From an uncultured virus (IMG/VR IMGVR_UViG_3300043395_001428) (taxonomy: Duplodnaviria > Heunggongvirae > Uroviricota > Caudoviricetes): a DNA stretch of 20,000 nt. The notes under the pieces are model-generated. The model was not told the origin of the DNA, did no database searches, and was given only the letters and a program-made list of their open reading frames with translations. The translations under genes and the position numbers were made by a program. Positions 942-19,588 of this stretch are shown here, one piece after another. Positions within the stretch are counted from its first letter, which is position 1; every line of letters begins with the position of its first letter. The stretch is from IMG/VR virus record IMGVR_UViG_3300043395_001428; one strand, written 5' to 3'.

Positions 942-957
942 AGCCTTATGATATAAT
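929..957 (+). promoter_or_regulatory. Sigma70-type promoter for the HNH endonuclease gene
   Basis: TTGTTT (929-934), 17-bp spacer, TATAAT (952-957) with an extended -10 TG at 949-950. It overlaps the ATG of the divergent tail gene. Confidence 0.6.
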
Positions 958-1036
958 AAATGCAGGTCGAAAGAAGTTGTCGCTTCCAACGACCCTGACC
1001 TTAATATTTTCTATCAAGGAGAAAACATCTTGGCTA
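958..1036 (-). ncRNA. Predicted cis-antisense RNA to the HNH endonuclease translation start (ends approximate)
   Basis: Minus-strand promoter TTGACC (1071-1066)-N17-TACGAT (1048-1043) lies inside the HNH ORF. The transcript would cover the start codon, the RBS and the hairpin at 963-997. Inferred only, and its terminator looks weak. Confidence 0.4.
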
Positions 1037-2553: not shown

Positions 2554-2557
2554 AACT

Positions 2558-3655: not shown

Positions 3656-3664
3656 AATTACTCC

Positions 3665-6518: not shown

Positions 6519-7210
6519 ATAGTAACGTGACGCCACGCCTCTCGGTAAGTAATGGCATAAATTAAAGAAACGCTTACATTATATTTTTTAGCCATTGATC
6601 TAACATGTAACGTCCCCTCTTGTTGTTGGCGTAATATGTCTCGAACTTTTTCTTCATTTAACTTTGCTTGCGTGCTTTGTTCGCCAATGATTTTTGATTC
6701 TGGTTTGGTACACCAATGATGTAACCGTCCTTTTCGTGGAGGCAGTTTTGTTTTCATAGGCTGTGGGGGCATTTGCTTTTCTACTCGTATTAGGTAATCT
6801 AAAGCCCGCTTAACCCCTTCAATAGAATCCCCCAATCCGCCAAGTCCCGTGTTACATGTAGAACATAAAAGTCCTCTAATTTGTCCTGTTTCATGACAAT
6901 GGTCTACTCGTAACCGCTTCCCATCGCGAGATTCATACCCACATATTGCACAAGCTCCATGTTGAGAAGCCAATAAATGTTCGTAATCTTCAATCCGCAT
7001 ACCATATCGGCTAAATAAATGTTGGTCACGTGACCGATTGGGGTCTTTCTCTTTATGCCACCTTGCCCTAGCCTTAGCTCTCAAACACATTTTACATTGA
7101 CCGTCTCGCCCATGAGCGTTTTTACCTGCTTTTGCAAATATACGGAACTCGTCTAAGGGTTTAGTTACCTTGCAACACGAACACGCTTTTTCTACAATTG
7201 GATTAGTCAT
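6515..7210 (-). CDS. Free-standing endonuclease VII-type (His-Me finger) nuclease with C-terminal HTH module
   Basis: YG...DYE.LL..Q.G.CAIC, VDHCHETGQIRGLLCSTCNTGLG and ALDYL form the EndoVII signature. N-terminal Zn module CSCC..KPLDEF..CKMC. C-terminal GEQSTQAKLNEEKV...MAKKYNVSVSLIYAI....WRHV. GAGG RBS. Confidence 0.9.
   Translation of the reverse strand: MTNPIVEKACSCCKVTKPLDEFRIFAKAGKNAHGRDGQCKMCLRAKARARWHKEKDPNRSRDQHLFSRYGMRIEDYEHLLASQHGACAICGYESRDGKRLRVDHCHETGQIRGLLCSTCNTGLGGLGDSIEGVKRALDYLIRVEKQMPPQPMKTKLPPRKGRLHHWCTKPESKIIGEQSTQAKLNEEKVRDILRQQQEGTLHVRSMAKKYNVSVSLIYAITYREAWRHVTI
7170..7198 (+). promoter_or_regulatory. Antisense sigma70-type promoter inside the 5' end of the EndoVII gene
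   Basis: TTGCAA (7170-7175)-N17-TACAAT (7193-7198). The -10 element sits at +13..+18 of the ORF. Confidence 0.6.
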
Positions 7211-7275
7211 TTCAATACCTCGTTTATTGATCTAAGATTAGGAATTGGGAAGTGCTTATAACACTTCCCTTTTCC
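7205..7275 (+). ncRNA. Predicted ~70-nt cis-antisense RNA to the EndoVII translation start (ends approximate)
   Basis: Bounded by the promoter at 7170-7198 and the hairpin GGGAAGTG-cttataa-CACTTCCC followed by TTTT (7247-7273). Complementary to the ATG and RBS. Confidence 0.5.
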
Positions 7276-7281
7276 GTGTTT

Positions 7282-7310
7282 ATGTTATCACACAATGTGA
7301 TTAGATTCAA
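7282..7310 (-). promoter_or_regulatory. Sigma70-type promoter for the EndoVII gene with a palindrome in the spacer
   Basis: TTGAAT-N17-TAACAT with extended -10 TG. Inverted repeat ATCACA-N3-TGTGAT at 7287-7301. Confidence 0.55.
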
Positions 7311-7366
7311 TCGCTAAATGCTTTGTTCTCTATCACTTGCGTCAAACCCAAAGTTAGTTGATACAA

Positions 7367-8668
7367 CTAACCTGCCGTTACCTGAGTTGTACCCGATGTG
7401 AGTGCTGCTCTAATAATCAACGCCGATGCGTAGTTACCGTCGCTCTTATTACCATCGCCCGCATCGAATCCGAAATTATAATAACGTCTAACCTGTTCGA
7501 ACCAAGCATCCGCACCGACGTTGTTATAACCCGCCGACTGACGCAGTTTCAGACCGTCTCTGTTGACCGTACCCATAGGGGTAAGTTCAAAACAGAAGTA
7601 ATCTGACCGTCTACGACAATACACGCGATCTTCGTCCATATCGGCGTCTACGATGAACAAGCAATCGCCGTCGATATACTTCTCAGGGTATCCATACGAT
7701 GTGGTTGCCTGACCGTCTGCTGCCTGATACTGACGAGCACCAAAGCCTTGAATGGCTAGGGTGTTGTACTGTCCCGGTGGCAAGTGGCAAATGCGGTTGA
7801 AGTCTTTCGTCGGCGTATTCATACGAATCTGGACTTTCGTTTTGAGCGTATTGATAGTAGCCGATGTCAGAGCGCTGCCGTTGAGGTCAACCTGTGACGA
7901 GTTGAACTCTTGGTAGTTGGTGGTGTCGAGTCCCTGAAACACGCGATCTGCACTGTTAATGAGATACGCAAGTCCGCGAGGAACTTTGTTGAACGCACCC
8001 TGTTCCACGACAAATGCACCGCTGTTATTAACGCTACCTGTGGTGGTACAGGTAACGGTAGCGGAGTTCGTGCCGTTCTGCGTCGGGGTCATCGTTCCGA
8101 CAACTGCGAACGAAGATTCGTCCACAACATCATAGACCACGTTCTTGCAGAGACGGTGTGCGCCTTTGGTGTAGCCAGCGACGGTCGAAGCAGCTGTGGT
8201 TCCTGTGAACGTACCGCCTGTGTTCGAGGTCGTAACTGCGAGAATACCGTAACCATAGTTGTCGCCAATGGCGTAATAGTTAAGGTGCTTCATGTAGTTC
8301 TCAATGGCGAGACGACGAGTCTGAGCATAGTTGATAAGACTTGCTTCAGTGTCCATCGTGTCCATCAAGATACCATCGGTGTACATTGCCTTGCCGGGGT
8401 ATGCCAAACCAACCCACATCGAGGCTGATTCGGGTGCAACAGGGTCGGTAAAGCTGTTACCTGATGCTCCGGGGGCGAGGTACGAGTTCTGACCGTAGTC
8501 AGTGGTAAAGAACGGGAGTTGGAATCCCTGTTGTCCGCCTTTTCTCGTTCGAGTTGATTTATCGAACGAATCGTAGGTCGGGGTCATATACTCACGGATG
8601 GTCGCAACTTCACGTTTGATCTGTTGTGCCTGAGTATCTGGTAGATTACTAAATTCTACTTCTGCCAT
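7367..8668 (-). CDS. Major capsid protein (HK97 fold, probable insertion domain)
   Basis: 433 aa, directly after the portal and scaffold genes, with AGGAG RBS. Segments LNYYAIGD..G, PRGLAYLI and DADMDEDRVY fit capsid proteins, and there is a T/G/S-rich central insertion. Confidence 0.85.
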   Translation of the reverse strand: MAEVEFSNLPDTQAQQIKREVATIREYMTPTYDSFDKSTRTRKGGQQGFQLPFFTTDYGQNSYLAPGASGNSFTDPVAPESASMWVGLAYPGKAMYTDGILMDTMDTEASLINYAQTRRLAIENYMKHLNYYAIGDNYGYGILAVTTSNTGGTFTGTTAASTVAGYTKGAHRLCKNVVYDVVDESSFAVVGTMTPTQNGTNSATVTCTTTGSVNNSGAFVVEQGAFNKVPRGLAYLINSADRVFQGLDTTNYQEFNSSQVDLNGSALTSATINTLKTKVQIRMNTPTKDFNRICHLPPGQYNTLAIQGFGARQYQAADGQATTSYGYPEKYIDGDCLFIVDADMDEDRVYCRRRSDYFCFELTPMGTVNRDGLKLRQSAGYNNVGADAWFEQVRRYYNFGFDAGDGNKSDGNYASALIIRAALTSGTTQVTAG

Positions 8669-8760
8669 ATGATTGCTCCTATAGGTCTAATTTATATAAA
8701 TTGATGCCTGATTCAATATCTCGTGATATTCGGCTCATCATCCAAACCGTGTATAAAACT

Positions 8761-10284
8761 TTATGCGTAGGCAGATGCCTTTTGAGCTTCTATCTCCCTG
8801 ATCGTTTGTTTGGCATACCATTCGTCAAGTTCTCGTGAACCATACGGCAGATGTGCCGGGGGTTCGTTCTTATTGGTTGCCGCTGTTCCTATTGCTTTAG
8901 CAACGGGACGTGCCTTTGGAAGCACCTTACGTTTCTCCACTTCCGTTTCAATGGCTTTTGCCGTACCTGCGACAGCTACGTTCTTTTCTTGGGTCAGGAT
9001 GTCATCGGCAAATTTAAGCCAATCACCTGTGACTGTTTTGAACGCACTCTGAGCTTTACTAAGAGAAACAGGATTCAATGGTTTTCCTTGTGCGTCTACT
9101 GCGTGTTTTTCCACTGCAAGGGCTTGAGAGGCTTTTGATACATCTTCAAGCAGTTTTTGTGCTTTAGCGTAGTCGAACGTCACACCTGCGTCTGCTAACG
9201 CTTGACGGGCAAACTCACCGTCAGGGCCGTCCGAAAAGGCTTGGGTCAGCGTAGTGACTTGCTGTGCTTTGAGTAGGGAGTTCAGTTTCGGGTCAGGCGA
9301 GAATTGCACCGCACTCAATTTCTCAGCCATTGTCTTACGCATTTCTGTGTAAAACGTGGTTTCGGTGTTAATTGCATCGTTGACAAGCGCTTGTTGTTTG
9401 GCTTGCTGTGCTTCTACGAGTCTTTGCTGTTTTTCAATACGAGCGTCGATACCTTCTTGGATATTTCGAAGTTCGCCTAGTTTATTCGTCCGTTCTGCTA
9501 CATAAGCATCATCGTCCCAATACTGCATTTCTTCGCGGGTTTCTTTTGAAAGCGTGTTATATGCCCCATAGAGTTCGGCAGGAATGAACGCAGGCACATC
9601 CGTCAACGCGGCGGTTGCACCAAGTTTCATCTGCTTCATTGTATTATGGTAACGAGACAACACCTGAGCCACAGTCTCGCCTTCTACTGCAAGGGCTTCT
9701 GCAATGCCTTCTTCAAACTTGTTAATGCCGGGATACTTTGTGGACGGCAACATATTGAGGTCGAAGCGAAGATAGTCTGCGGTCAACTCATCTTTCGCTG
9801 CGATACGCTTGGCAAATTCGTCCGTATTCGGTCTGTAACTGCCTTCTTCTTCCCGACGCGAGTAAAGGGTATGATGTTCGTCCAAAACCTCTTTAACAGC
9901 CTCTACGTCGCCGTAATCGGCTATCTGAGTAAAGATTTCAGGAGTCTCAACGGCTTGCGCTTTCATTTGAAGCGCGTCGATATATGCTTTCAGTTCAGGA
10001 GCGTCCGATAGGTCATATTTAGCGAGGACTTGTTCGGCTTTTTCAGCGAATACGGTGTCATCGTCCGTTGCGTCAAAAATGACCACAGGAACTTCTACTT
10101 CTTTGACCTCTTCTGTGGTTTCCTCTACGATCTCTTCTTCCGCAGGAACTTCTTCAGCCGCTTCTTCGGTTGTCTCTGTAACAATTTCTTCCGCAGGGGC
10201 TTCCTCCGTTTCTACGACTTCTACGACCTCCTCTACGATAGGTTCGACTACTTCAACTATTGGTGTTTCTATGTTATCTAGCAT
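8761..10284 (-). CDS. Putative capsid scaffolding protein
   Basis: Lies between portal and capsid. Very acidic low-complexity N-terminus (E/V/T/P), helical coiled-coil body and basic/Pro-rich C-terminus. ATG at 10284 is preferred because the GTG at 10311 lies inside a hairpin. 507 aa. Confidence 0.7.
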   Translation of the reverse strand: MLDNIETPIVEVVEPIVEEVVEVVETEEAPAEEIVTETTEEAAEEVPAEEEIVEETTEEVKEVEVPVVIFDATDDDTVFAEKAEQVLAKYDLSDAPELKAYIDALQMKAQAVETPEIFTQIADYGDVEAVKEVLDEHHTLYSRREEEGSYRPNTDEFAKRIAAKDELTADYLRFDLNMLPSTKYPGINKFEEGIAEALAVEGETVAQVLSRYHNTMKQMKLGATAALTDVPAFIPAELYGAYNTLSKETREEMQYWDDDAYVAERTNKLGELRNIQEGIDARIEKQQRLVEAQQAKQQALVNDAINTETTFYTEMRKTMAEKLSAVQFSPDPKLNSLLKAQQVTTLTQAFSDGPDGEFARQALADAGVTFDYAKAQKLLEDVSKASQALAVEKHAVDAQGKPLNPVSLSKAQSAFKTVTGDWLKFADDILTQEKNVAVAGTAKAIETEVEKRKVLPKARPVAKAIGTAATNKNEPPAHLPYGSRELDEWYAKQTIREIEAQKASAYA

Positions 10285-10294
10285 ATTTTTATAC

Positions 10295-10335
10295 AAAAAA
10301 GCCCTATGCACACCGAATAGGTATGCGCAGGGCTT
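10295..10335 (-). terminator. Terminator-like leader hairpin A
   Basis: AAGCCCTGCGCATACC-TATTC-GGTGTGCATAGGGCTT followed by a T-run, ending 10 nt upstream of the scaffold ATG. Confidence 0.7.
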
Positions 10336-10354
10336 GACGTGTTTCCGTCTCTAA

Positions 10355-10525
10355 TTACTGCGAAAGTAGCATATCCTTACGTTGCTGTAAAGATTCTTTT
10401 ATTTTCGCGACTATTTCCTCGATCTCAAGCAACGTAGGCTCGGTGTCTACGTCACCTATATACAGACTTGCCACGTGTGCAAATCCCCTAAACTCAGCTA
10501 ATGCTCTATCTTCTTTTTGCGTCAT
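10355..10525 (-). CDS. Small hypothetical protein (56 aa)
   Basis: MTQKEDRALAEFRG... is the 3' part of track ORF 10355..10726. The ATG at 10525 overlaps the portal end and the ORF fills the gap to the leader. Confidence 0.5.
   Translation of the reverse strand: MTQKEDRALAEFRGFAHVASLYIGDVDTEPTLLEIEEIVAKIKESLQQRKDMLLSQ
10363..10391 (-). promoter_or_regulatory. Candidate promoter upstream of hairpin A and the scaffold gene
   Basis: TTTACA-N17-TACTTT with extended -10 TG. Confidence 0.4.
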
Positions 10526-12932
10526 TCGCTTTCTTCTGGTTCTGAAGTCGAGCTTGTTCAAGACTGTTCTTACGTTCCTCAGCGTTGTCTGCCAACTCTT
10601 TATCCTGCATTGCCATATCTGCTTGGCGTTGACGTTCATCGTTGACAAACTGCATCTTCGCTGTAGGATCGTTCGCTTGCTGTTCTGCCTGAGCCTGTTG
10701 CTGTTCGGCTTCAAACTGCTGTACAAGTTGTTGGTTTTGGTAATTCATTATCTGTTCGCCCACCAATTCGGGTAAACGTGACATCACCATTCCCATATTT
10801 GTATCGAGTCCGACCTGAGCCTGTCCGAGTGTGGCTTCCTGAAGTTGTACGCTTATCATTTCTTCAACAACATAACGCAATTCTTCAGGGGCATACTGCA
10901 TTTCATCCGAGTCTAACAGTTCTGCCATCCATTTTGCTTTTTGGTCAGCATATAGTTCCTTAGAACTGATAGGTGGCACAAGCCTAGATACGATACTCGC
11001 CGCTAGATTCACATTATCCACAGGCTGTCCTGTCACCGCTGTCATTATCTGCTGAGTCGCTAGTTCCTGTTCAAGCATCTCTTTAGCTTGTTCAATACGT
11101 TTACGGCAAATCCTAGCAATGTCAGGAGTGCGCATTATCGGTAGATTTTGAATCCCGAACGCAGTCACGACTGCATCTGTGAAATCCATATCTATTTGAG
11201 CGGCTTCCATTAACCCCTGCATTCCGCCCGTAAATTGAAATAGACGACTGAGGCTCTGTTCGTTGGCGAATGGGGTCTTAGGGGCTTCGGAGTTAGCAAC
11301 TATCTCAAAATCTATATCGACGTTATCAAATTCATCGCCCGTCAGATACTTACCTGCGGTAATGCCATTCTTTGAACGGGACGCGAACCATTTAGGTTTA
11401 TTGATGAATCTTTTGAACAAGGTGTAAATTACCTTATCACATCTCATTCTTTGCGCAGCTTTGTTAAGATGCTGTGGCAAGAGTTGCTTCAAGGCCAAAC
11501 TTTCGCCTATCTTTGCACCTGTCGCTGTTTCGTTATTCACACCGGGCAATCCTTCCGAAAAAGCCGTGACCTGAAATGCACTCTGCAAATCTTTCTCTAA
11601 TTCGGCTTTGTATTGGAATCCTGCTACAGCAGGGTTAGCAGGCACAAGGGCTTGGATAGCATCGTTGATGGAGCGCACACCGTCAGGAGCATTCGTGAAA
11701 TCTAGCGGAATATTCTTACGGGGTTTGCCGACATCTCTTGCATCGGACTCGCTGACCATATCTTTGTGGTACCCGAATCCCGGCGTCGAGTGCGATTTGA
11801 CGTGAGCTAAGAGTTGCGAATGCAGGTCATTAAGTTCTTTGTAGACATCTACTGCGTCATCTAAGCCTTTACCTACACCTGAGAATGTTCTGTCGTGGTA
11901 GACGCCTGATACGATATGGTCACGATGATTCTCTGCATATAGACCGATAATGGTCTGCATATTGTTGATGCCTACTGCACAGAGTCCTTTTGGAAACATC
12001 TCAAGCAACGAACGTCCTTTAGGAATGGTTTCGCCCGACACTGTTTTTTCGGGGAACGCCAAGTCCCACGTGCAGTACACTTCAGGCTGTAGCCACATCT
12101 CCGTGACAACGACTTCGCCTTTAACATTCTCATACGTGCCGTAGAGCCTGTCTTTGCCTTCGCCTCTTACACCCGTACCTTGTCGGGTGATCTGTTCCAT
12201 TATCTGCAATCCGTAGTGGTCAGATGTATCTTCATCGGGTATATCCACGTCCAAGAGATATTCTAAAGTAGATGTGGCACACTTGGATTCGTAGATAAAG
12301 TAAGGTGAATCTTCCACCATTACTCTCATATCCCACCGACAGGCAGGGAACGGTAAGAGTTCGCAGATAAGGTCATCTTCGCGAGGGTCGAATCTGAATC
12401 GAGTTATCCACGTCCCGAAGTTCGCGGCGCTCATAAACTCTTGTTTTTCGTATGCGGTATTAAAGAACTTTCTGTCGTAGTAGTCTTGGACTATCTTAAC
12501 ATTATCAATAAAGGCTTCTACTTGGTCTTGGTCTGAGGGGCAAATGGGGTCACGAGCAGGACGGGATGATAACCACTCTGCCATTAGGTTTGTCACGTAG
12601 AACTGAAACTTACCACCGACTGTTTTATTGTCCGACCACCGACCGTCAGGTTTGACAAGTCGCATCTGTCCCGTTCGTGCGTGACGCATCGGGACTAACT
12701 TCCCTTCGGTCAGATTCGCTATCATCTGTCCCGTGTTCAGTTTCTCTATCCAATCCTGATAGTCGCGGTCTTTGTATTCTTGGTATTTCTCAGCGAGGGA
12801 TTTGTTTATTTTACAAGGACGAGAGATGCGTCCTTTCTTTGCCAACTCGTCTAAGTCAGCCTTTACAGCCAAGTTATTGCTGTTTTGGCTATAGATAGCT
12901 TTTGGCTGTTGCGAAGATATTGTGGCTGGCAT
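10506..12932 (-). CDS. Portal protein (large, P22-like)
   Basis: 808 aa between terminase and scaffold. Segments SRPARDPICP...D, AANFGTW, GKGLDDAVDVYKELN and ETATGAKI, plus a Q-rich coiled-coil C-terminus, resemble P22-type portals. Confidence 0.85.
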   Translation of the reverse strand: MPATISSQQPKAIYSQNSNNLAVKADLDELAKKGRISRPCKINKSLAEKYQEYKDRDYQDWIEKLNTGQMIANLTEGKLVPMRHARTGQMRLVKPDGRWSDNKTVGGKFQFYVTNLMAEWLSSRPARDPICPSDQDQVEAFIDNVKIVQDYYDRKFFNTAYEKQEFMSAANFGTWITRFRFDPREDDLICELLPFPACRWDMRVMVEDSPYFIYESKCATSTLEYLLDVDIPDEDTSDHYGLQIMEQITRQGTGVRGEGKDRLYGTYENVKGEVVVTEMWLQPEVYCTWDLAFPEKTVSGETIPKGRSLLEMFPKGLCAVGINNMQTIIGLYAENHRDHIVSGVYHDRTFSGVGKGLDDAVDVYKELNDLHSQLLAHVKSHSTPGFGYHKDMVSESDARDVGKPRKNIPLDFTNAPDGVRSINDAIQALVPANPAVAGFQYKAELEKDLQSAFQVTAFSEGLPGVNNETATGAKIGESLALKQLLPQHLNKAAQRMRCDKVIYTLFKRFINKPKWFASRSKNGITAGKYLTGDEFDNVDIDFEIVANSEAPKTPFANEQSLSRLFQFTGGMQGLMEAAQIDMDFTDAVVTAFGIQNLPIMRTPDIARICRKRIEQAKEMLEQELATQQIMTAVTGQPVDNVNLAASIVSRLVPPISSKELYADQKAKWMAELLDSDEMQYAPEELRYVVEEMISVQLQEATLGQAQVGLDTNMGMVMSRLPELVGEQIMNYQNQQLVQQFEAEQQQAQAEQQANDPTAKMQFVNDERQRQADMAMQDKELADNAEERKNSLEQARLQNQKKANDAKRR

Positions 12933-13348
12933 TAGTAGAAAATGTACTGTTCAGGCTTCTGTCGAATAATAGCTTCGTATTCTTCTATCGTTTTAGGAAC
13001 TACGTTGTCATCAATGTCCATTTGGTGCATCATCTCAGCCGCGTAGCGAATCTTCTGCTCCATTGCCTCGTCTATCGGAGGCGATGGTTGCGGTTCGTCC
13101 TCTTTGGCTATTATTGCAAATGAACTCTGGGTTTTAGCATTTTTGCTGATTACATCGGCGTGATGCCGAAGTGTCCTAATTTCAGAGTTGCGTGCCTTTG
13201 TTACTTCTTTCTCTAACGCAGTGGCACGCCATTCTTCGCGTTCAAGCAAGGATTGTAGTTCACTCACTTTACGCTTTTCAAATTCCAACTCACGGGACAA
13301 GGTGTCAATTTGCCCCGCTTGTTGGATATATTTTGACCAAAAGCCCAT
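12932..13348 (-). CDS. Hypothetical coiled-coil protein
   Basis: 138 aa with a heptad-rich N-terminal half. Stop overlaps the portal ATG (TAATG). Confidence 0.75.
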   Translation of the reverse strand: MGFWSKYIQQAGQIDTLSRELEFEKRKVSELQSLLEREEWRATALEKEVTKARNSEIRTLRHHADVISKNAKTQSSFAIIAKEDEPQPSPPIDEAMEQKIRYAAEMMHQMDIDDNVVPKTIEEYEAIIRQKPEQYIFY

Positions 13349-13654
13349 TTAGCAAATCATTCGAGCCTGATGCCCGCCCACAGATGGCCCAGATGCGGTG
13401 AATGCCGCTGTAGTTGACCCGAACGTGAAGCCCATGTTATTAGCAATGGTAAAGCCACGTACCGCTTGTGTACCATAAATACGGTCACAAATAGACAGCA
13501 CGGCTTCCCCTGCTAGGGCTGCGGCTTGAGCAGTCGCGACAGTGGTCATTTCCCCGTCTACGACACCTAAAAGATTGAACGAAATGTTTCCCTGCATATT
13601 GGCTTTCTGACCAATCGGCAAGTCACAGATTGAATGCGTTGATTCCCAAGACAT
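13349..13654 (-). CDS. Hypothetical protein
   Basis: 101 aa with AGGAG RBS. First gene after leader hairpin B. Confidence 0.7.
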   Translation of the reverse strand: MSWESTHSICDLPIGQKANMQGNISFNLLGVVDGEMTTVATAQAAALAGEAVLSICDRIYGTQAVRGFTIANNMGFTFGSTTAAFTASGPSVGGHQARMIC

Positions 13655-13763: not shown

Positions 13764-14012
13764 CTATATTCTTGCTTGGTCAATTTTATGCCGTCGATGT
13801 ATCTGTACTCTCGTCATCTCAGGGTGCATCACCACTAACACGTCGCAGGTGATACATTTAGACGCTCGTTGGGCTTTGTACACGTTTTCAGCGTGTTCTG
13901 CTGTGCGTTGAATCATCCTGTTGACCTGATTAGCAGTCTCTATGTCCTCTACCCACCGTAAGTGGTGGTCAATGATGAGTAAAGCACGTTTGATCTCAGC
14001 GATAGGGGTCAT
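13764..14012 (-). CDS. Small hypothetical protein (82 aa)
   Basis: Track ORF 13764..14081. The ATG at 14012 (MTPIAEIK) overlaps the upstream stop as ATGA. Confidence 0.6.
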   Translation of the reverse strand: MTPIAEIKRALLIIDHHLRWVEDIETANQVNRMIQRTAEHAENVYKAQRASKCITCDVLVVMHPEMTRVQIHRRHKIDQARI

Positions 14013-14227
14013 TGGTAGATTGTGCCACAATGGTCGCAGTTGTCCCGATGTCTTTTCACAGGGGCGGAACAGTTTACACAATTGGCAGAACGTACGCTTG
14101 GCACGTCAACGGTCTTGTTAGTTAAAGTATCGTATTGTCGCGTTGCATACCCCATTATCGCAGGCGTGAAATGCGTGACATCCAACGCTTGTGCTAAAAT
14201 CCTGTCCCAATTTTCTTGATTTATCAT
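14009..14227 (-). CDS. Small Zn-ribbon protein (72 aa)
   Basis: ATG at 14227 just after the terminase stop. C-terminal CVNC-x10-CDHC. Confidence 0.65.
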   Translation of the reverse strand: MINQENWDRILAQALDVTHFTPAIMGYATRQYDTLTNKTVDVPSVRSANCVNCSAPVKRHRDNCDHCGTIYQ

Positions 14228-14228
14228 T

Positions 14229-16499
14229 TCACTCCCAATCGAACTCCTCTTCCAACTCATCTAGTCCCAACGTCATTTTCGCAAGTTCTTCCTCGAACTC
14301 ATACGCAATAGCCGCGCTGAATTTCTGACCTGCTGTGGTAGCCGTTGCTACTGCCATTTTTGTTTCTTCGGGTATCACTTGATAAATCTTTTCATCAGGC
14401 GTCATCCCCGTCGAACGTGTACGAAACTTATGACATATCATTCGCAGGCATTCTGACACAGATGCAGACTTGCTAGGCTTCCCTTTGTCTGTGTATGCCC
14501 ACGTTTTCACTTCTTGTCGTAAAGCAATCAATCCCTTAGCATCTCTAGCCTGTATCGTCTGATTATCGTTGACTACAGCAGATAATCTATCAGGCTGAAA
14601 ATACCAATTCATATCCACAATGCCTGCAAACTCATCTTCTTTGAAGAGCCTGACACCATAACTGAGTTTTTGTCGAATTACTGCTTGAAATGTATCAGAT
14701 TCAGGATGAAGCCAGATAACAGACGCTTGAGGATTCACGCACCATTCCTTCAATGTCGCATCAAGCCACGCAAATAGATAATGGTAATCAGCGGTATAGT
14801 CTTTGTACTCAGCAAGGATAAATAACGAGTCTACGCCCGTAATTTGGGGTGAACGGGCTACAATAACGCCCCCATTTGCCCGATTTGCTTCAGGCGTAAT
14901 ATGCAAACCTACATACACCGTCCATTTTGCAGGAATTTTCTCGCCAAACTGTCCCACAAATGCCGTTTTTGTCAATAATGGCAACGGATTTTGGATAATC
15001 AAGCCTTTAGCGACCCGTTCCGCACATTCGTTATACCCGTCTGACCCTGCATCTACACAATCATCGTTATCCGACAGCGGAAAGTTGCGAAATTCCTTCT
15101 TCACTTCCTTGTTCCACTCCGCTTTAGCAAACGACACCTGCCCTTGATTCATTGCAGATGCTAATGCGTCAGCTCTGCGTGCTTTTGAACCTGTTGTGGC
15201 TCTTTCTACGACCTGATACCCCTCTAAAAGCTGTTGAATGTGAAAAACAGCGGTGTTGCCTGCCGCACCGGGGTCATTAGGAATGGAAATGACTACCTCA
15301 AAGCCGTCTTTTTGAGCAGTAGCGAGTTGCAACTTGTCGCGTCCTGCGGAATCCACTTGTTCCCTGACCACATCAAACAATGTTGCCTGTTTGTCTGCCG
15401 ACATCCCCCACAGTTCGCCCACTGAGTAGTCGCCACCTTCTTCCGTTGCCGCCAAATCCCACGACCGAACAAAGACCGAACATTCTGCACGCCTTTGTTC
15501 TGTTTCTTCTTCTGACAGTTCAACGATCTGCCCGACATTAAAGAACTCGCCCTCTTCTGACGACGGACGACCTTGATTCATTGAACTAAAAACGCGATTG
15601 TTCTTGCGAACTTCGTCATAATACTCAGGCAATCGACGCTCAGAGATGTATTCACCGATTTCACGTCCTAAAGGATCGGGGTATCTCTGTCCCGTCTCGT
15701 CGTGAATGTAGTCCCCGTCGCAAACAGTGGCATAGCGCCAATAATCGAATGAGCCTTTATCGAGTAAATATCCTGCTAAATCTTCAACGTGATACCTGTG
15801 GAACATCCCAAAGACGTTCGTGTACGTGCCCATACGGGACATCACGGTAAAATCCCAAAATTCTTGTAAATGGTTGCGAGTCGTTTCTGAGAATGCTTCT
15901 TTTTGGTCGGCATACGGGTCATCAATGATAAGGTCATCAAATCCCGAACCTGTTAGCCCCGACTGTAAGCCTACGGGATTAAACGAGTCTTGTCCGTCAT
16001 TTAACTCTATTCTTGCCGCCGTAGACCACTTCTCTTTCGACGCTTTCTCGTCTACCCACCCATCTTTATTTGGGAATATCTGCTTATGAATAGGCAGATT
16101 CATTATTCCTATAACTGTTTTCGAGTGTCGTTGGCTTCGTGTGACGTTATAAGTGGCTAGGGCGATTCGGTGAAGAGGCAGATGTCCCAATAACCACGCA
16201 GGGTATGCTTGGGCGAGAATGGAAGACTTCCCTAATTGCCCTTCAGCGTGGATGATAGCCCACTCTCGTTTAGTGGCACGATTCAATGAAGCATTCTGCA
16301 ACCGCTCACAAAAATCCTTTTGCCAACGATCAGTTCTGAGCCTTTTAATACGCTCAAAATATTCCACTAACGGAATTTGTATATAGAACGGTTTAGGAGC
16401 TAAGTCAATGTAGTCAATCGGCTGTGACCGAAAGGACGGAGGCAGTGGTTCTATCCCTGCTAACCTTGTTTGTGTCCTTAGTAGTTCATCCCATCCCAT
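14229..16499 (-). CDS. terL: Terminase large subunit with C-terminal extension
   Basis: Walker A EGQLGKS, Walker B LTGSGFDDLIIDDP, HRYHVEDLAG coupling region, and RNase H-like nuclease motifs RSWDLA...GDYSVG and DNDDCVDA. About 265 extra residues follow. Confidence 0.93.
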   Translation of the reverse strand: MGWDELLRTQTRLAGIEPLPPSFRSQPIDYIDLAPKPFYIQIPLVEYFERIKRLRTDRWQKDFCERLQNASLNRATKREWAIIHAEGQLGKSSILAQAYPAWLLGHLPLHRIALATYNVTRSQRHSKTVIGIMNLPIHKQIFPNKDGWVDEKASKEKWSTAARIELNDGQDSFNPVGLQSGLTGSGFDDLIIDDPYADQKEAFSETTRNHLQEFWDFTVMSRMGTYTNVFGMFHRYHVEDLAGYLLDKGSFDYWRYATVCDGDYIHDETGQRYPDPLGREIGEYISERRLPEYYDEVRKNNRVFSSMNQGRPSSEEGEFFNVGQIVELSEEETEQRRAECSVFVRSWDLAATEEGGDYSVGELWGMSADKQATLFDVVREQVDSAGRDKLQLATAQKDGFEVVISIPNDPGAAGNTAVFHIQQLLEGYQVVERATTGSKARRADALASAMNQGQVSFAKAEWNKEVKKEFRNFPLSDNDDCVDAGSDGYNECAERVAKGLIIQNPLPLLTKTAFVGQFGEKIPAKWTVYVGLHITPEANRANGGVIVARSPQITGVDSLFILAEYKDYTADYHYLFAWLDATLKEWCVNPQASVIWLHPESDTFQAVIRQKLSYGVRLFKEDEFAGIVDMNWYFQPDRLSAVVNDNQTIQARDAKGLIALRQEVKTWAYTDKGKPSKSASVSECLRMICHKFRTRSTGMTPDEKIYQVIPEETKMAVATATTAGQKFSAAIAYEFEEELAKMTLGLDELEEEFDWE

Positions 16500-16546: not shown

Positions 16547-17308
16547 TCAAGTAAAAAATAATGAAGATTGTGGTTCATAACTTTCAATAGTTCGATTAGC
16601 TACGTCCACGTATTCCCCATCAATCTCCGAACCTAGCCAATCCCTATCTAGTTCGATACACGCCTTTGCTACTGCACCACTTCCCATAAATGGGTCATAC
16701 ACCAAATCTCCAACATTAGAACTTGCCTCGATAAACCGTTTCATCAGTTCTACGGGCTTTTCAGACGGGTGATATTTATTACCGATGTAGTTAGGTATCT
16801 CGAATACAGTCTGTTCGCCAAGATTGTTGACCGACCGCGCAGGACGTTTAGACAACATTAAGATAAACTCCCCATTTTGCATAAAATATTTGTTTGGTGT
16901 GGCATTATTCTTTTTCCATACCAACAAATTCTGATACACAAATCCAACTTTTTCGGCTTCTATCTGCAAGTCTTTCAGATTACGCCCGTTAATCATCACA
17001 TAAGCGTGCGTAGACGGTTTTAAGACGCGATAGCACTCAGGTAGCCATTCGTGGAACTTAATGTCGTTGTGAGCGAACATAGCCCCATCTTTGACCGCAC
17101 TAGGACGTGATGCGTCGGCTTTTAGCCACTTGTTTGAGCAATTTGTTCCATCTGACGTGGTTTTGAATACACCACCTAGATTTTCCACTGTAATGCCCCC
17201 TGCAACAATCTTGTACGGGCAATCGGTCACGATTAAATCTACAAAAGCATCAGGCATCCGTACCATTGTATCTAATGCTGATTCGTGATGTATTTTATTC
17301 AACTCCAT
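16547..17308 (-). CDS. DNA methyltransferase, N4-cytosine/N6-adenine, beta class (no partner restriction enzyme visible)
   Basis: Motif IV DLIVTDCPY precedes HPSEKP and motif I YDPFMGSG. Also has RVLKP and GSEID. Confidence 0.93.
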   Translation of the reverse strand: MELNKIHHESALDTMVRMPDAFVDLIVTDCPYKIVAGGITVENLGGVFKTTSDGTNCSNKWLKADASRPSAVKDGAMFAHNDIKFHEWLPECYRVLKPSTHAYVMINGRNLKDLQIEAEKVGFVYQNLLVWKKNNATPNKYFMQNGEFILMLSKRPARSVNNLGEQTVFEIPNYIGNKYHPSEKPVELMKRFIEASSNVGDLVYDPFMGSGAVAKACIELDRDWLGSEIDGEYVDVANRTIESYEPQSSLFFT

Positions 17309-17373: not shown

Positions 17374-17490
17374 CTACCTATGCCCCCTTTTCCTCACTAT
17401 CCTTGCTATCTGCCGACACGATTCACTGCATATCTTGCTTGATATGCCTGTTTCATAGGAGCGTCCGCATTGAACGCAATATTTTTTCAT
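17374..17490 (-). CDS. 38-aa Zn-ribbon microprotein
   Basis: Not in the ORF track. MKKYCVQCGRSYETGISSKICSESCRQIARIVRKRGHR, with CxxC...CSxxC. ATG overlaps the upstream stop (ATGA) with a GGAGGT RBS. Confidence 0.65.
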   Translation of the reverse strand: MKKYCVQCGRSYETGISSKICSESCRQIARIVRKRGHR

Positions 17491-18143
17491 CGTTTATACC
17501 TCCATATCCCAATGCTTTCACCTACTTGTCCGTTGCTTTCCACGCTAATCTGTGTCCACTCGCCCCCTTTCCATATCGGCAATGGCTTGCCTACTATTTC
17601 GGAGAGGGCGTCAAACGCTCCTGTGCCACCGATTACCTTATCACCGTAAACTTCACTTTCATCCCATATTAAATGGTAATCGAAGTCACGATATTCAATC
17701 CTCGGCACGGGTTTTTGATCTATCGCTTCACGTAATACAGACAATGGAATGTCAAAATGCAAACTCGCATTCTCATCTAATGTAATATCAGCACCTTTGA
17801 CTGAGACATTCAATCGACCTTTTTCCGCTTTCGCTACACAATGATTATTCCATAAATCTATCACCAAAAGCTGTAGTTCTGTTTCCATTTGTGTTTCCTG
17901 TCCATTAAATACCTGATACAAATTCTCAGAGGCTTTGATGTAGCCCTCCCCGACAAGCGACTCGTAGGTGCGGGTGCAGGGGTTGTCGGCTCGTGCTAAT
18001 GCGTGCTTGTAGTGCCAGTCAATAGGGCGTTTGCAGTCAGGGCACAGATTAGGGCATTTGATGTGTTGCCCTGTTATTGGGCTAGTTGCAAAACCTATCC
18101 AAGATTCAACGCCAATTGGCTGATGACATTTTTCACATTTCAT
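17487..18143 (-). CDS. Hypothetical protein with Cys/His-rich N-terminus
   Basis: 218 aa with CEKC...HIKC..LCPDC. GAGG RBS and ATGA coupling. Confidence 0.7.
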   Translation of the reverse strand: MKCEKCHQPIGVESWIGFATSPITGQHIKCPNLCPDCKRPIDWHYKHALARADNPCTRTYESLVGEGYIKASENLYQVFNGQETQMETELQLLVIDLWNNHCVAKAEKGRLNVSVKGADITLDENASLHFDIPLSVLREAIDQKPVPRIEYRDFDYHLIWDESEVYGDKVIGGTGAFDALSEIVGKPLPIWKGGEWTQISVESNGQVGESIGIWRYKR

Positions 18144-18391
18144 TTCGTTTCCTCGCTGTCTATCGGATAGGTCACGGTTGTTTTACCGCCTACCAATCCT
18201 TGCTCGTATAACTGTTTAAGGCTCGGTATCGTCACTTTGTCGCGGATAATGGCTATTTGTTCTTCTTCAGTCAAGGGTTCGACATTTTCCACTATCGAAC
18301 GTCCGCCCCACGCGGTTTGCTCACCGCATTGCGGACAAATGCCTTCCCCACGCCACGAACATTTATGTTGCCAAAAGATTTGGTCGCTCAT
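18140..18391 (-). CDS. Small Zn-ribbon protein
   Basis: 83 aa with HKC...CPQCG. GGAG RBS and ATGA coupling. Confidence 0.7.
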   Translation of the reverse strand: MSDQIFWQHKCSWRGEGICPQCGEQTAWGGRSIVENVEPLTEEEQIAIIRDKVTIPSLKQLYEQGLVGGKTTVTYPIDSEETK

Positions 18392-18573
18392 TTCGTTTCT
18401 CCCGTAGTACAGGGCTGTTCGTTCCGCTTTTTATCTAAGACAGCTGTCGTCAAAATCTGTTTGATTTTATCTGATAACGTCATAAAATTATCCGCCTTTG
18501 CCCATTCCATCAATGCGACTTTTAGCTGATTCGGGACGTAAGCTCCGATAAATACACCTTTTCTTTTACTCAT
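18388..18573 (-). CDS. Ribbon-helix-helix (Arc/MetJ-like) DNA-binding protein
   Basis: Likely start at ATG 18573 with GAGGAG RBS. GVFIGAYVP (strand), NQLKVALMEWAKAD (helix), MTLSDKIKQILTTAV (helix). Confidence 0.65.
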   Translation of the reverse strand: MSKRKGVFIGAYVPNQLKVALMEWAKADNFMTLSDKIKQILTTAVLDKKRNEQPCTTGETK

Positions 18574-18767
18574 CCGATTATCTCCTCGTCCAACCCACCG
18601 TGTTCGCACCCACTTATGGCGTGCTTGGTCATCAGTTCTTGGATTTCCGCACTTACCAATATCGCGTAGGACTCAGCGAGAAGTTTTATGTCAGCAGGTG
18701 AGTGTACGTAATCTTCATTTCCAATGATGTCCTTTAATATCGCGTCTTTTGCTTCTTTTATGTCCAT
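18570..18767 (-). CDS. Small hypothetical protein
   Basis: 65-aa ORF in the tightly packed operon. Confidence 0.6.
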   Translation of the reverse strand: MDIKEAKDAILKDIIGNEDYVHSPADIKLLAESYAILVSAEIQELMTKHAISGCEHGGLDEEIIG

Positions 18768-19226
18768 ATTTGTGCTATAATCAATCAGTTATTTGACAAT
18801 TTCCGCCATATTACATCAGTTAAATCACACGTCACTGATTCGTGGCGGATTCGGAGTTCTTCCTGTAAAACAGCGTTAAATTTCTCGGCCTCGCTCGTAG
18901 GACACAAGGTATTGATCCTGTCTCTCGCAAAATCCGCCAAAATCGCTGTGTACATATGCACTATCTCGTGCACGACTTGAGATTCCTGCGCCGCGTCTTC
19001 CTCTTGCAACCACCCAGACGAAAAATCTAAGCAGATAGCACGATAATCATAGTTCACTTTTATCGCGATGCGTTCCCCATCCACTTCCGCATCCCATAGA
19101 TTGCAATGTACATTTTGTACCCAACTAGGGATCATCCATTCCCATTTAGTTAAATACTGACTAATCTTGTGCTTGTGGTCAGGACGAATATTCTTGTTAT
19201 ATGTAACGTGCATTTGTGCTATAATC
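18768..19226. repeat. 15-bp exact direct repeat ATTTGTGCTATAATC (18768-18782 and 19212-19226)
   Basis: Read directly. The two copies flank the HExxH gene. Confidence 0.85.
18785..19213 (-). CDS. Putative zincin-like metallopeptidase
   Basis: 142 aa with VVHEIVH (HExxH) and a downstream HES that may supply the third-ligand Glu. Confidence 0.7.
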   Translation of the reverse strand: MHVTYNKNIRPDHKHKISQYLTKWEWMIPSWVQNVHCNLWDAEVDGERIAIKVNYDYRAICLDFSSGWLQEEDAAQESQVVHEIVHMYTAILADFARDRINTLCPTSEAEKFNAVLQEELRIRHESVTCDLTDVIWRKLSNN

Positions 19227-19588
19227 TAGTCTTGTTGGTCTTTGAACTGTATCGCAATGCGGTCATACTGATGCACCCATTCGTGACCATTTGCTAATAT
19301 ACAACGGTGACTTCTGCCATTGATGTGATAGATGGTTGAACATCTTGGGGTTCGTTGATACTCCCCTACTGAATTTATACCGTGTTCAGGGTCGCCACCC
19401 AATCTTATAGGTATGCGTTCCCCCTCGACCGTCCACCGCTCTCGTAGCATCTCCAGATAGCGCTCGTTCTCTTTCTCTTGCCAACTCATCGGGCAAGTTA
19501 CGTGTTCGCCACCGTTTTCTCCGTAGTTTTGATTTTCGGTTATATTCATCAGTTTTCCACATTTACCGCAAGTCGTATGCGTTTTCAT
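19226..19588 (-). CDS. Cys/His-rich hypothetical protein
   Basis: 120 aa with CGKC...HVTC and C...HRC....H..VH clusters. Confidence 0.7.
   Translation of the reverse strand: MKTHTTCGKCGKLMNITENQNYGENGGEHVTCPMSWQEKENERYLEMLRERWTVEGERIPIRLGGDPEHGINSVGEYQRTPRCSTIYHINGRSHRCILANGHEWVHQYDRIAIQFKDQQD

What the first reader, a model, noticed from the sequence alone, without database searches (positions are those of the whole stretch)
14229..14936. Large terminase with a second, apparently dead nuclease domain in tandem
Seen: a complete ATPase and nuclease (SWDLA D348, DDCVD D483) end near residue 490, but the ORF continues to residue 756. From residue ~522 the extension follows the motif order of another terminase RNase H-like domain. 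IPAKWTVYVGLHIT resembles IP..W....giDfG, VIVARSP...LFILAEY resembles A.dp...yvydEy, and IWLHPES resembles Dps. AGIVDMNWYF follows, then LRQEVKTWAYTDKGKP and SASVSECLRM resemble E...Y.w...P and DHamDalRY. The expected catalytic Asp positions read H533, H and S/E. Inference: a captured or duplicated pseudo-nuclease, closer in motif style to a different terminase subfamily than the first domain, retained for DNA binding, portal docking or regulation of cutting.
Basis: partly seen in the sequence, partly recalled or inferred. Interest (0 to 1): 0.75.

Follow-up and report, generated by a model that had tools for sequence, protein, structure and literature searches.

The report
Terminase with a grafted dead nuclease
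This phage DNA-packaging enzyme carries, behind its normal motor and cutting domains, a second cutting-type domain that lacks a key catalytic residue and appears to be left over from a different terminase, probably kept so that the enzyme still fits the phage's head entrance.

Summary
ORF 14229..16499 (-) encodes a 756-aa large terminase (TerL). Residues 47-500 are a complete phrog_38/Terminase_6C TerL with intact motifs. Residues ~497-697 ("domain X") model confidently (pLDDT 90) as a terminase nuclease fold: Z 18.0 to D6E TerL, and the top 31 PDB entries are all terminase nucleases. The first catalytic Asp is never present in the family (0 of 26; K/R/H in 24), while the other two acid positions are mostly kept.

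Domain X is not a duplicate of the first nuclease domain (hhalign 0.5%). It is homologous to the linker plus nuclease of another uncharacterised TerL family, here "P0005-type" (96.8%, E 3e-10). That family shares the ~60-aa acidic C-terminal tail (80% identity).

Close relatives of this phage, judged by the portal-position protein, carry the P0005-type TerL in the same slot (21 of 23 pairs, and L003). The domain also follows a second, unrelated TerL core (phrog_9).

Best reading: a foreign TerL core was grafted onto the resident TerL's C-terminal half, which survives as an inactive portal-docking adaptor. Docking is inferred, not shown. About 40 clusters carry the domain, all metagenomic, and none of 50,697 phage records does. 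I rate it a new variant of a known kind.

The parts
14229..16499 (-). Large terminase ORF, 756 aa, of the three-domain 'X-type' described here
   Evidence: phrog_38 at residues 47-500, E 1e-58.
15480..16361 (-). ATPase domain, residues ~47-340. Walker A-like GQLGKSS at 87-93 (16221-16241) and Walker B-like DDLIIDDP at 188-195 (15915-15938).
   Evidence: phrog_38 and phrog_4758 matches. Motif positions. The Walker labels are from my own knowledge of ASCE ATPases, not from a tool.
15030..15464 (-). First nuclease domain, presumed active, residues 346-490, with D348, D409 and D480/D483
   Evidence: Pfam Terminase_6C at 346-490, E 1e-10. The motif I Asp is D in 17 of 17 X-type proteins, motif II is D/E in 17 of 18, and motif III is D in 18 of 18.
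14409..15029 (-). Linker plus domain X, residues 491-697: a second terminase-nuclease fold that lacks the first catalytic Asp
   Evidence: Model pLDDT 90.3. Z 18.0 to D6E TerL residues 234-417. Foldseek PDB gives 21 hits at E<=1e-3, nearly all terminases. hhalign to the P0005-type linker plus nuclease is 96.8%, E 3e-10.
14901..14903 (-). Codon of H533, at the end of strand beta-1, where terminase nucleases carry the first catalytic Asp
   Evidence: Strand beta-1 spans model residues 37-43. Family column: K13 R8 H3 E1 S1, 0 of 26 Asp. It aligns to the invariant D of NDWARTKT in the P0005-type family. The location of the Asp at the end of beta-1 is stated in PMC7672431 (passages).
14232..14408 (-). 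C-terminal tail, residues 698-756: four predicted helices ending in the acidic/aromatic ...DELEEEFDWE. Presumed portal tether.
   Evidence: Helices at model residues 211-263. 74-80% identical to the tail of P0005, a TerL with an unrelated body. 51% identical to the tail of the P0005-type TerL in L003.
10506..12932 (-). 808-aa protein in the portal position, the presumed docking partner
   Evidence: No Pfam, PHROG or PDB sequence match. The Atlas places it near SU10_portal/P22_portal clusters at 0.95-0.96, which is a lead only. Homologues lie downstream of TerL in L002 (E 6e-45), L003 (85% over 138 aa) and L005 (hhalign 98.1%).

Best explanation
The protein is a chimeric large terminase. Its first ~490 residues are a complete, apparently active TerL of the phrog_38/Terminase_6C kind (ATPase plus nuclease). 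From about residue 491 it continues with the inter-domain linker, nuclease domain and C-terminal tail of a different TerL family, called P0005-type here. That family is the usual terminase of this uncultured phage group. In the grafted nuclease domain (domain X) the first catalytic Asp has been replaced by Lys, Arg or His, so canonical two-metal cleavage is most likely lost, while the fold and several surface motifs stay under constraint.

Proposed mechanism (inferred): in the packaging motor the last domain and tail of TerL face the portal. Domain X plus the tail would provide the portal-facing ring and tether that this phage group's portal expects. That would let a foreign ATPase-nuclease core drive packaging and cutting.

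Shown here: the fold, the loss of Asp-1, homology to the P0005-type C-terminal half, tail sharing, and the distribution on the portal tree. Inferred: catalytic inactivity, portal contact, and the adaptor role.
For: Fold. The model has pLDDT 90.3. Its VIA-align top 31 entries are all terminase nuclease domains (Z 12.2-18.0), and the next fold class starts at Z 9.4. Foldseek PDB gives 21 hits at E<=1e-3 and BFVD gives 162.

Origin. hhalign of domain X against the P0005-type nuclease gives 89.2%, E 2e-6 over 204 columns. With the tail junction trimmed it gives 72%, score 39.8, against a maximum of 20.8 in 30 column shuffles. With the linker included it gives 96.8%, E 3e-10. Controls: 0.5% against its own first nuclease domain, 0.1% against the P0005-type ATPase, and 0.1% reversed.

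Tail. It is 80% identical over 55 aa to P0005, whose body is unrelated. It is only 65% identical over 43 aa to P0004, whose body is 88% identical.

Genomic context. L003 has a portal N-terminus 85% identical to the window's and the same small ORFs, but a P0005-type TerL 3' end with a ...FDWE tail. On a 28-row portal tree the X-type rows fall in one 99* clade nested among P0005-type rows, which needs 1 change.

Module behaviour. Domain X also follows a phrog_9/PF20441 TerL core in P0031, and L007 is a two-domain relative of that core without domain X.

Inactivation. Asp-1 is 0 of 26 in domain X, against 52 of 52 in the P0005-type family and 17 of 17 in the first nuclease domain.

Constraint. 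Q662 and C684 are invariant (31 of 31), and W667, G673, R661, R686, M687 and F692 are kept in at least 29 of 31.

Literature (passages read). The C-terminal arm or tether of TerL is implicated in portal docking in D6E and T4 (PMC5727402) and in lambda (PMC9026076). [quoted passage not shown]
Against: No direct evidence shows that the tail or domain X touches the 808-aa protein. That protein's identity as a portal rests on position, size and a language-model lead only, with no Pfam, PHROG or PDB sequence match.

Four conserved acidic columns remain in domain X: 600 is D/E in 24 of 31, 629 in 31 of 31, 663 in 30 of 31, and 683 in 27 of 31. A non-canonical active site is therefore not excluded. 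I could not inspect coordinates, so residue-to-metal-site mapping rests on secondary-structure position and alignments.

The 21-versus-2 pairing relies on equal contig lengths taken from two tables, not on the DNA itself. Only the window, L002, L003 and L005 were seen directly.

L006's neighbour did not match the portal family convincingly (13%).

The P0005-type nuclease fold was not modelled. If only the tail mattered for docking, long-term retention of a full ~200-aa domain would need another reason.
Confidence: 0.6

Rival explanations
1. Domain X is mainly a DNA-binding or regulatory pseudo-nuclease, like the vestigial nuclease CTD of phi29 gp16. It would grip or sense DNA and gate the active first nuclease between initiation, translocation and termination. 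Portal docking would be done by the tail alone.
For: The phi29 CTD is a terminase-derived nuclease fold that lost the Asp at the end of beta-1 yet still binds DNA (PMC7672431, passages). Domain X keeps conserved basic and aromatic positions: R661, R686, R693 in 19 of 31, W632 and W667. It also keeps the hairpin-like TW.Y.DKGEP segment.
Against: This reading does not by itself explain why the domain is homologous to the resident TerL family of this phage group. It also does not explain why the domain stays constant behind two unrelated TerL cores. The two roles are not mutually exclusive.
Confidence: 0.2
2. Domain X is a second active nuclease with a modified active site, giving the terminase two cutting centres, for example one for initiation and one for headful termination.
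For: Acidic residues are strongly conserved at 537 (D/E in 24 of 27), 600 (24 of 31), 629 (31 of 31), 663 (30 of 31) and 683 (27 of 31), and His598 is kept in 20 of 31.
Against: The Asp at the end of beta-1 is absent in 26 of 26 and is replaced by a basic residue in 24. It is invariant in both comparison families. It is described as conserved among large terminases in PMC7672431. That it is essential for catalysis in characterised terminases is my recollection, not a call result. Acid-2 is lost in the divergent sub-clade. E663 has a counterpart in the motif of the canonical domain (KKEFRNFP in the first nuclease domain), so it need not be catalytic; that match is by eye.
Confidence: 0.12
3. 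Tandem duplication of the protein's own nuclease domain, followed by decay of the second copy.
For: Both domains have the same fold class.
Against: The profile comparison of domain X with the first nuclease domain of the same proteins gives 0.5% probability, E 0.11. Domain X against the P0005-type nuclease gives 72-97%. The same domain follows a different TerL core in P0031.
Confidence: 0.03
4. Two separate genes were joined by a sequencing or assembly error.
For: None found.
Against: The same continuous ORF occurs in P0004, in 13 full-length 50%-identity representatives and in L005 and L006. Contigs at depth 16-25 bridge the junction with 0 differences and 0 indels, although those runs may be the source sample.
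Confidence: 0.01

Closest known systems
phi29 gp16 C-terminal domain, the 'vestigial nuclease' (PMC7672431; passages read)
   Same: It is a terminase-derived RNase H-like domain at the C-terminus of a packaging ATPase. It has lost the conserved Asp at the end of beta-1 and is retained for a non-catalytic role.
   Different: In phi29 it is the only nuclease-like domain, it is structurally reduced (4 strands, 2 helices), and the phage needs no cutting. Here the domain is full-size (168 residues superpose on D6E at 2.4 A) and sits behind a second, intact nuclease domain in a terminase that presumably still cuts concatemers.
Canonical two-domain large terminases: D6E, SPP1 G2P, P22 gp2, T4 gp17, Sf6 gp2, HK97
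   Same: Residues 47-500 have the standard ATPase plus RNase H-like nuclease layout. Domain X has the same nuclease fold (Z 13-18).
   Different: No solved or GenBank phage terminase examined has a second nuclease-fold domain. 0 of 1863 phage records with a TerL match cover 80% or more of the query, and the extension has no match among 50,697 phage records.
C-terminal portal tether of lambda TerL (gpA) and the C-terminal arm of D6E/T4 TerL (PMC9026076 and PMC5727402; passages read)
   Same: A short segment after the last helix of the nuclease domain is proposed to dock on the portal. Here a ~60-aa helical, acidic tail follows domain X and tracks the head module rather than the enzyme core.
   Different: The tail here is longer. 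It comes in two classes across the family (acidic/aromatic ...FDWE and basic ...RRFxRR). It is shared between two terminase families with unrelated bodies. Binding was not tested successfully here.
P0005-type terminase family (uncharacterised, named here; at least 141 clusters)
   Same: Linker, nuclease and tail are homologous to residues 491-756 of the window protein. The gene occupies the same slot upstream of the same portal-position family.
   Different: It has one nuclease domain, about 100 residues longer, with an invariant Asp-1 (52 of 52) and DD motif (52 of 52). Its ATPase matches phrog_38 only weakly (E 3e-11 for P0046; E 2e-5 for P0005). It has no Pfam terminase hit.

Membership tests
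Large terminase, phrog_38 / Pfam Terminase_6C type (residues 1-490) | Nuclease domain matches Terminase_6C above the curated cut-off | tested here: met
   42.3 bits against a cut-off of 22.6, residues 346-490.
Large terminase, phrog_38 / Pfam Terminase_6C type (residues 1-490) | Full-length TerL profile match covering both ATPase and nuclease | tested here: met
   phrog_38 at residues 47-500, profile positions 280-711 of 760, E 1e-58.
Large terminase, phrog_38 / Pfam Terminase_6C type (residues 1-490) | Catalytic acids of the nuclease and Walker motifs of the ATPase are present | tested here: met
   D348, D409 and D480/D483 are present and conserved in 17 of 17, 17 of 18 and 18 of 18 relatives. 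GQLGKSS and DDLIIDDP are present. The motif names are recalled.
Terminase RNase H-like nuclease domain (domain X, residues 497-697) | Terminase-type RNase H-like fold | tested here: met
   Z 18.0, rmsd 2.4 A, 168 aligned to D6E residues 234-417. The top 31 entries are all terminase nucleases. Foldseek E 9e-6.
Terminase RNase H-like nuclease domain (domain X, residues 497-697) | Conserved catalytic Asp at the end of beta-1 | tested here: not met
   H533 in the window. The family column is K13 R8 H3 E1 S1, 0 of 26 Asp.
Terminase RNase H-like nuclease domain (domain X, residues 497-697) | Second and third catalytic acids | tested here: inconclusive
   E600 (D/E in 24 of 31) and E683 (D/E in 27 of 31) lie where these acids are expected from the secondary structure. 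No coordinates were available to confirm the geometry.
Terminase RNase H-like nuclease domain (domain X, residues 497-697) | Match to a curated sequence model of a terminase nuclease | tested here: not met
   No Pfam family at E<=10 and no PHROG at E<=1 for residues 491-756.
P0005-type terminase C-terminal half | Profile-profile homology over linker and nuclease | tested here: met
   hhalign 96.8%, E 3e-10, 183 columns. 72% with the tail junction trimmed, against a maximum of 1.5% in 30 shuffles.
P0005-type terminase C-terminal half | Shared C-terminal tail | tested here: met
   45 of 61 identical, E 2e-25. 80% over 55 aa.
P0005-type terminase C-terminal half | Invariant Asp of the NDW motif and the DD motif | tested here: not met
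   52 of 52 in the P0005-type family. Domain X has K/R/H at the first position. At the DD position, Asp683 appears offset by about three residues in the hhalign alignment.
phi29-like vestigial nuclease CTD | Reduced fold, sole nuclease-like domain, in a phage that packages unit-length DNA | tested here: not met
   The domain is full-size and sits behind an intact nuclease domain.
phi29-like vestigial nuclease CTD | Retained DNA binding | not testable with these tools
   Needs a binding assay.
Portal protein (808-aa ORF 10506..12932) | Match to a portal family or portal fold | tested here: inconclusive
   No Pfam or PHROG hit and no PDB sequence hit with a 54-sequence profile. The Atlas feature search places it near SU10_portal (24% of members) and P22_portal (94%) clusters at 0.95-0.96.

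The most novel reading that the evidence does not exclude
Linker, dead nuclease domain and tail together form a portable 'portal-adaptor cassette'. In this uncultured phage group the portal-facing ring of the packaging motor is supplied by a catalytically dead relic of the resident terminase. Whole foreign terminase cores are plugged in upstream of it: at least two unrelated families, phrog_38-type and phrog_9-type. The tail is re-matched to the local portal by recombination. This would be natural evidence that the C-terminal domain and tail of TerL, not the ATPase, carry portal specificity, and that enzyme core and docking unit can evolve as separable modules.
Probability: 0.45. Interest if true: 0.75.

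Novelty: new variant of a known kind. Interest (0 to 1): 0.68.

Why it matters
Which face of the large terminase contacts the portal, and how much of the protein determines portal specificity, has been argued from a handful of model phages. This is a natural experiment on that question. The enzyme core has been exchanged for an unrelated one, while the C-terminal nuclease-fold domain and tail of the old terminase were kept, lost catalysis, and stayed conserved across about 40 sequence clusters.

If the adaptor reading is right, it does three things. It marks the portal-specific part of the motor. It shows a route by which terminases are swapped between phages without breaking head-motor compatibility. 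It adds a second, independent case, after phi29, of a terminase nuclease domain recycled for a non-catalytic role, this time alongside an active copy.

It also matters for annotation. Neither domain X nor the whole P0005-type terminase family is recognised as a terminase nuclease by Pfam or PHROGs.

Tried and rejected
- **Single-sequence model.** An AlphaFold2 model of the full 756-aa protein without an alignment had mean pLDDT 35.1 and was unusable.
- **PDB sequence searches.** The whole protein gave only a histidine kinase at E 0.12. The A1 profile gave only weak ATPase-region hits. Neither was informative.
- **Tail-portal complex.** Complex prediction with the 808-aa protein (54-row alignment) and the tail (residues 690-756, 33-row alignment) returned no verdict: score 0.00 against a mark of 0.32, and controls were not run. 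This is no evidence either way.
- **Loci searches that found nothing.** The search for related loci returned no relatives in viral contigs for the extension, the portal-position protein or P0007. With alignment A1 the call returned an error because no stretch was conserved enough.
- **Own genome.** No genome is held for this window.
- **Earlier notes of this scan.** Nothing was found by sequence or by place.
- **Portal identity by curated models.** Pfam, PHROGs and a PDB profile search gave nothing.
- **L006.** Its 923-aa neighbour matched the portal family at only 13% probability.
- **L004.** This was a weak 39% match over 53 residues and was not used.
- **Sequencing runs.** X3 and X4 hold only 151-193-base identical pieces, too little to say anything about habitat or architecture.
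- **Literature.** 'large terminase / nuclease domain / pseudonuclease' found 135 papers holding at least two of the terms, and none of the 15 listed used 'pseudonuclease'. 'terminase' with 'second nuclease domain', 'two nuclease domains', 'tandem nuclease', 'additional C-terminal domain' or 'duplicated nuclease' found 10 papers. By title and abstract start, none is about a terminase with two nuclease domains. The library lacks most subscription journals, so this is not proof of absence.
- **Tandem duplication and assembly artefact.** Both were considered and rejected; see the rival explanations.
Full report
**1. What is in the sequence**

The window holds a 756-aa ORF on the minus strand, 14229..16499.
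- Pfam finds one domain, Terminase_6C, at residues 346-490 (E 1e-10, 42.3 bits, cut-off 22.6).
- PHROGs finds a full TerL match, phrog_38, at residues 47-500 (E 1e-58).
- Neither library reports anything for residues 491-756 searched alone.
- The finding's coordinates correspond to residues 522-756.

In 50,697 GenBank phage records the extension has no tblastn match. Of 1863 records that match the TerL, none covers 80% or more of it, and the 30 best listed all stop at residue 490-494.

**2. The extension is a conserved family, always fused to a complete terminase**

An exhaustive phmmer search with residues 491-756 against 1.84 billion representatives gave 40 proteins at E<=1e-3. Of these, 33 were at E<=1e-10 and 13 at E<=1e-30.
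- Thirteen are full length (784-1504 aa) and carry the match at their C-terminus. Those above 1100 aa contain inteins.
- I scanned 23 with Pfam. 13 have Terminase_6C upstream of the match, and one (P0031) has TerL_nuclease PF20441 instead.
- PHROGs assigns P0031 to phrog_9 (E 1e-37). P0007, P0010, P0018, P0030, P0032 and P0033 match phrog_38. P0024 matches only phrog_979 and other nuclease-region terminase PHROGs.
- L007 carries a 508-aa phrog_9-type TerL that is 43% identical to P0031 residues 13-493 and has no extension.
- So the same C-terminal module follows two unrelated, complete terminase cores.
- The short hits begin inside TerL or inside the domain and look like contig-end fragments. 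I found no convincing stand-alone form, but I did not test this further.

**3. Fold**
- A single-sequence model of the whole protein failed (pLDDT 35).
- A model of residues 491-756 built on a 32-sequence alignment (A1) is confident: mean pLDDT 90.3, pTM 0.80. Its strand and helix order is b1-b2-b3-a-b4-a-b5 followed by helices.
- Foldseek against the PDB gives 21 matches at E<=1e-3, nearly all large terminases: D6E, SPP1 G2P, P22, T4/RB49 gp17, G20c, HCMV UL89, HSV pUL15, Sf6 and HK97.
- VIA-align gives Z 18.0, rmsd 2.4 A and 168 aligned residues to D6E TerL. Model residues 8-205 align to chain residues 234-417, which is its nuclease domain. The top 31 entries are all terminase nuclease domains (Z 12.2-18.0). 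The first other RNase H-like proteins (pantothenate kinase, FtsA, RuvC) score 9.4 or less.
- BFVD gives 162 hits at E<=1e-3, and the named ones are large terminases.
- Residues ~497-697 are therefore a second terminase-type nuclease domain, called domain X here. Residues 698-756 form four helices ending in DELEEEFDWE.

**4. Active-site state**

In large terminases the first catalytic Asp lies at the end of strand beta-1 (PMC7672431, passages).
- In the model beta-1 is residues 527-533, ending at H533.
- Across the family that column is K13, R8, H3, E1, S1: no Asp in 26 sequences and a basic residue in 24.
- In the hhalign alignment this column pairs with the invariant Asp of NDWARTKT in the P0005-type family. 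That Asp is D in 52 of 52. The first nuclease domain of X-type proteins has Asp in 17 of 17.
- The positions expected for the second acid (after beta-4) and the third acid (start of the last helix) are E600 and E683. They are D/E in 24 of 31 and 27 of 31. Acid-2 is lost in the divergent sub-clade.
- Other strongly conserved positions are D/E629 (31 of 31), Q662 (31 of 31), D/E663 (30 of 31), W667 (30 of 31), C684 (31 of 31), and R686 and M687 (29 of 31 each).

My reading is that canonical two-metal catalysis is lost, with a Lys, Arg or His taking the place of the metal-bridging Asp, and that the domain is otherwise under constraint. That reading is an inference. I had no coordinates to inspect and ran no assay.

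**5. Origin: captured, not duplicated**

The first homologue search returned a 1031-aa intein-bearing protein, P0005. It shares only the last 61 residues with the window protein (45 of 61 identical, E 2e-25). P0005 matches phrog_38 only weakly, at residues 462-674 (E 2e-5), and its only Pfam hit is LAGLIDADG_3. Its family has at least 141 clusters, mostly ~690 aa, many on 60-77 kb contigs, with no Pfam terminase annotation.

Profile-profile comparisons with hhalign:

| Comparison | Probability | E or score |
|---|---|---|
| Domain X vs P0005-type nuclease region, 204 columns end to end | 89.2% | E 2e-6 |
| Same, tail junction trimmed | 72% | score 39.8 (maximum 20.8 and 1.5% in 30 column shuffles) |
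| Same, reversed | 0.1% | |
| Domain X plus upstream linker vs P0005-type linker plus nuclease | 96.8% | E 3e-10 |
| Domain X vs the proteins' own first nuclease domain | 0.5% | E 0.11 |
| First nuclease domain vs P0005-type nuclease | 0.1% | |
| Domain X vs P0005-type ATPase | 0.1% | |

With the linker included, the alignment starts right after the last motif of the first nuclease domain (...DGYNEC | AERVAKGLII...). So residues ~491-756 correspond to the linker, nuclease and tail of a P0005-type terminase.

**6. Genomic context**

The 808-aa ORF downstream (10506..12932) is in the portal position. It has no Pfam, PHROG or PDB sequence match. The Atlas places it near SU10_portal and P22_portal clusters, which is a lead only.
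- **L002** is a 77-kb viral contig with the order P0005-type TerL, four small ORFs, then an 868-aa ORF. That ORF is homologous to the window's 808-aa ORF (26% over 613 aa, E 6e-45). The two TerL bodies show no BLASTP similarity.
- **L003** is a 1956-base metagenome contig with a portal N-terminus 85% identical to the window's. It has homologues of the window's 138-, 101- and 105-aa ORFs (58%, 39% and 58% identity). Upstream lies the 3' end of a P0005-type TerL that runs from its single nuclease domain straight into a ...FDWE tail, 51% identical to the window's tail.
- **Portal family and pairing.** The portal-position family has 101 members. Matching the 'longest contig' lengths between the terminase tables and the portal table gives 23 pairs. 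21 are P0005-type (portal 49-77% identical to the window's). 2 are X-type: the window itself, and P0004 with a portal 79% identical. This pairing is indirect.
- **Portal tree.** I built a tree of 28 of the 101 portal-position proteins: the 23 paired rows plus 5 close unpaired ones, with quick IQ-TREE under LG+G4. The two X-type rows fall in one clade with 99% SH-aLRT support. That clade is nested in a 100% clade of 9 rows and, beyond that, among P0005-type rows. One change of terminase type suffices.
- **Tail mosaicism.** The window's tail is closer to P0005's tail (80% over 55 aa) than to the tail of its nearest TerL relative P0004 (65% over 43 aa). Yet P0004 is 88% identical in the body and 78.5% in domain X. 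The tail is therefore mosaic and follows the local head module.
- **Tail classes.** Both terminase families show two tail classes: acidic with a terminal aromatic residue, and basic ...RRFxRR.
- **L005 and L006** are 68- and 69-kb viral contigs encoding X-type TerLs 36-37% identical to the window's over nearly the full length, with other tails. L005's 846-aa neighbour belongs to the same portal-position family (hhalign 98.1%, E 6.5e-14). L006's neighbour is inconclusive at 13%.
- Neither the P0005-type TerL nor the 808-aa protein has any match in the GenBank phage collection.

**7. Not an artefact**

Besides the homologues, contigs from two runs of one sample (possibly the source) cover the junction between the first nuclease domain and domain X with no differences and no indels, at depth 16-25. 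Two other samples hold short identical pieces.

**8. Mechanism**

Shown here:
- a complete TerL core;
- a second nuclease-fold domain lacking Asp-1;
- homology of that domain and its tail to the resident terminase family of this phage group;
- the module's presence behind two different cores;
- mosaicism of the tail.

From the literature (passages read):
- The segment after the last nuclease helix is implicated in portal docking in D6E and T4 (PMC5727402).
- Lambda TerL ends in a helix followed by a portal-binding tether (PMC9026076).
- The phi29 vestigial nuclease still binds DNA (PMC7672431).

Inference: a foreign TerL core was grafted, at the inter-domain linker, onto the C-terminal half of the resident terminase. 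The old nuclease became redundant and lost its first Asp. It persists as the portal-facing ring and tether that the portal requires, possibly also contacting DNA.

My confidence in each layer:

| Layer | Confidence |
|---|---|
| Fold | about 0.97 |
| Capture from the P0005-type family | about 0.85 |
| Catalytic death at the canonical site | about 0.8 |
| Adaptor role | about 0.55 |

The attempt to test tail-portal binding in silico gave no verdict.

**9. Comparison and novelty**

The closest concept is the phi29 gp16 vestigial nuclease. That domain is reduced and is the only nuclease-like domain in its protein. Here a full-size dead copy sits behind a live one. The literature searches I ran found no description of a terminase with two nuclease-fold domains. 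The library lacks most subscription journals, and I did not read the recent reviews in full. I rate this a new variant of a known kind, of real interest to people working on packaging motors and phage modular evolution.

Noticed in passing
window 14009-14260 (-): An 83-aa ORF overlaps the terminase stop by 32 bases. It has a C-terminal zinc-ribbon-like CxxC...CxxC segment (Pfam DZR, E 8.5e-4, below the cut-off). No counterpart was found in L003.
   Followed up: partly
window 6515-7210 (-): A 231-aa endonuclease VII-like protein (phrog_2633, E 1.5e-36) with weaker HNH and Lar-like N-terminal matches sits among unannotated genes downstream of the portal-position gene.
   Followed up: no
window 16547-17308 (-): A DNA methyltransferase (phrog_67, E 7e-55) lies immediately upstream of the terminase. 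No small terminase was recognised among the upstream ORFs scanned.
   Followed up: no
window 946-13654 and 17487-19588: Of the 20 window ORFs scanned against PHROGs, 18 had no hit at E<=1e-3, including the 808-, 516-, 433- and 406-aa proteins. This looks like a very poorly charted phage lineage of ~60-77 kb genomes (contig lengths).
   Followed up: partly
P0005, P0012, P0013, P0022, P0036, P0045 and others: Both terminase families are rich in inteins, inserted at several different sites. P0012 and P0022 appear to have two each (Hint, Intein_splicing and LAGLIDADG_3 hits). In P0022 one interrupts the last motif of the first nuclease domain.
   Followed up: no
C-termini of proteins listed: There are two sharply different tail classes: acidic ending in W/Y/F-E, and basic ending in RRFxRR-like strings. 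Each occurs in both the X-type and the P0005-type families, which suggests two portal-docking chemistries exchanged between terminase types.
   Followed up: partly
L005 2-8281 (+): A very large ORF of at least 2759 aa, open at the contig end, lies just upstream of the terminase region in a 68-kb viral contig.
   Followed up: no
window 10506-12932 (-), C-terminal ~100 residues: The portal-position protein ends in a long Gln/Glu/Ala-rich segment. By recall it is reminiscent of the helical barrel of P22-like portals. The only PDB profile hits were low-complexity noise in this region.
   Followed up: no
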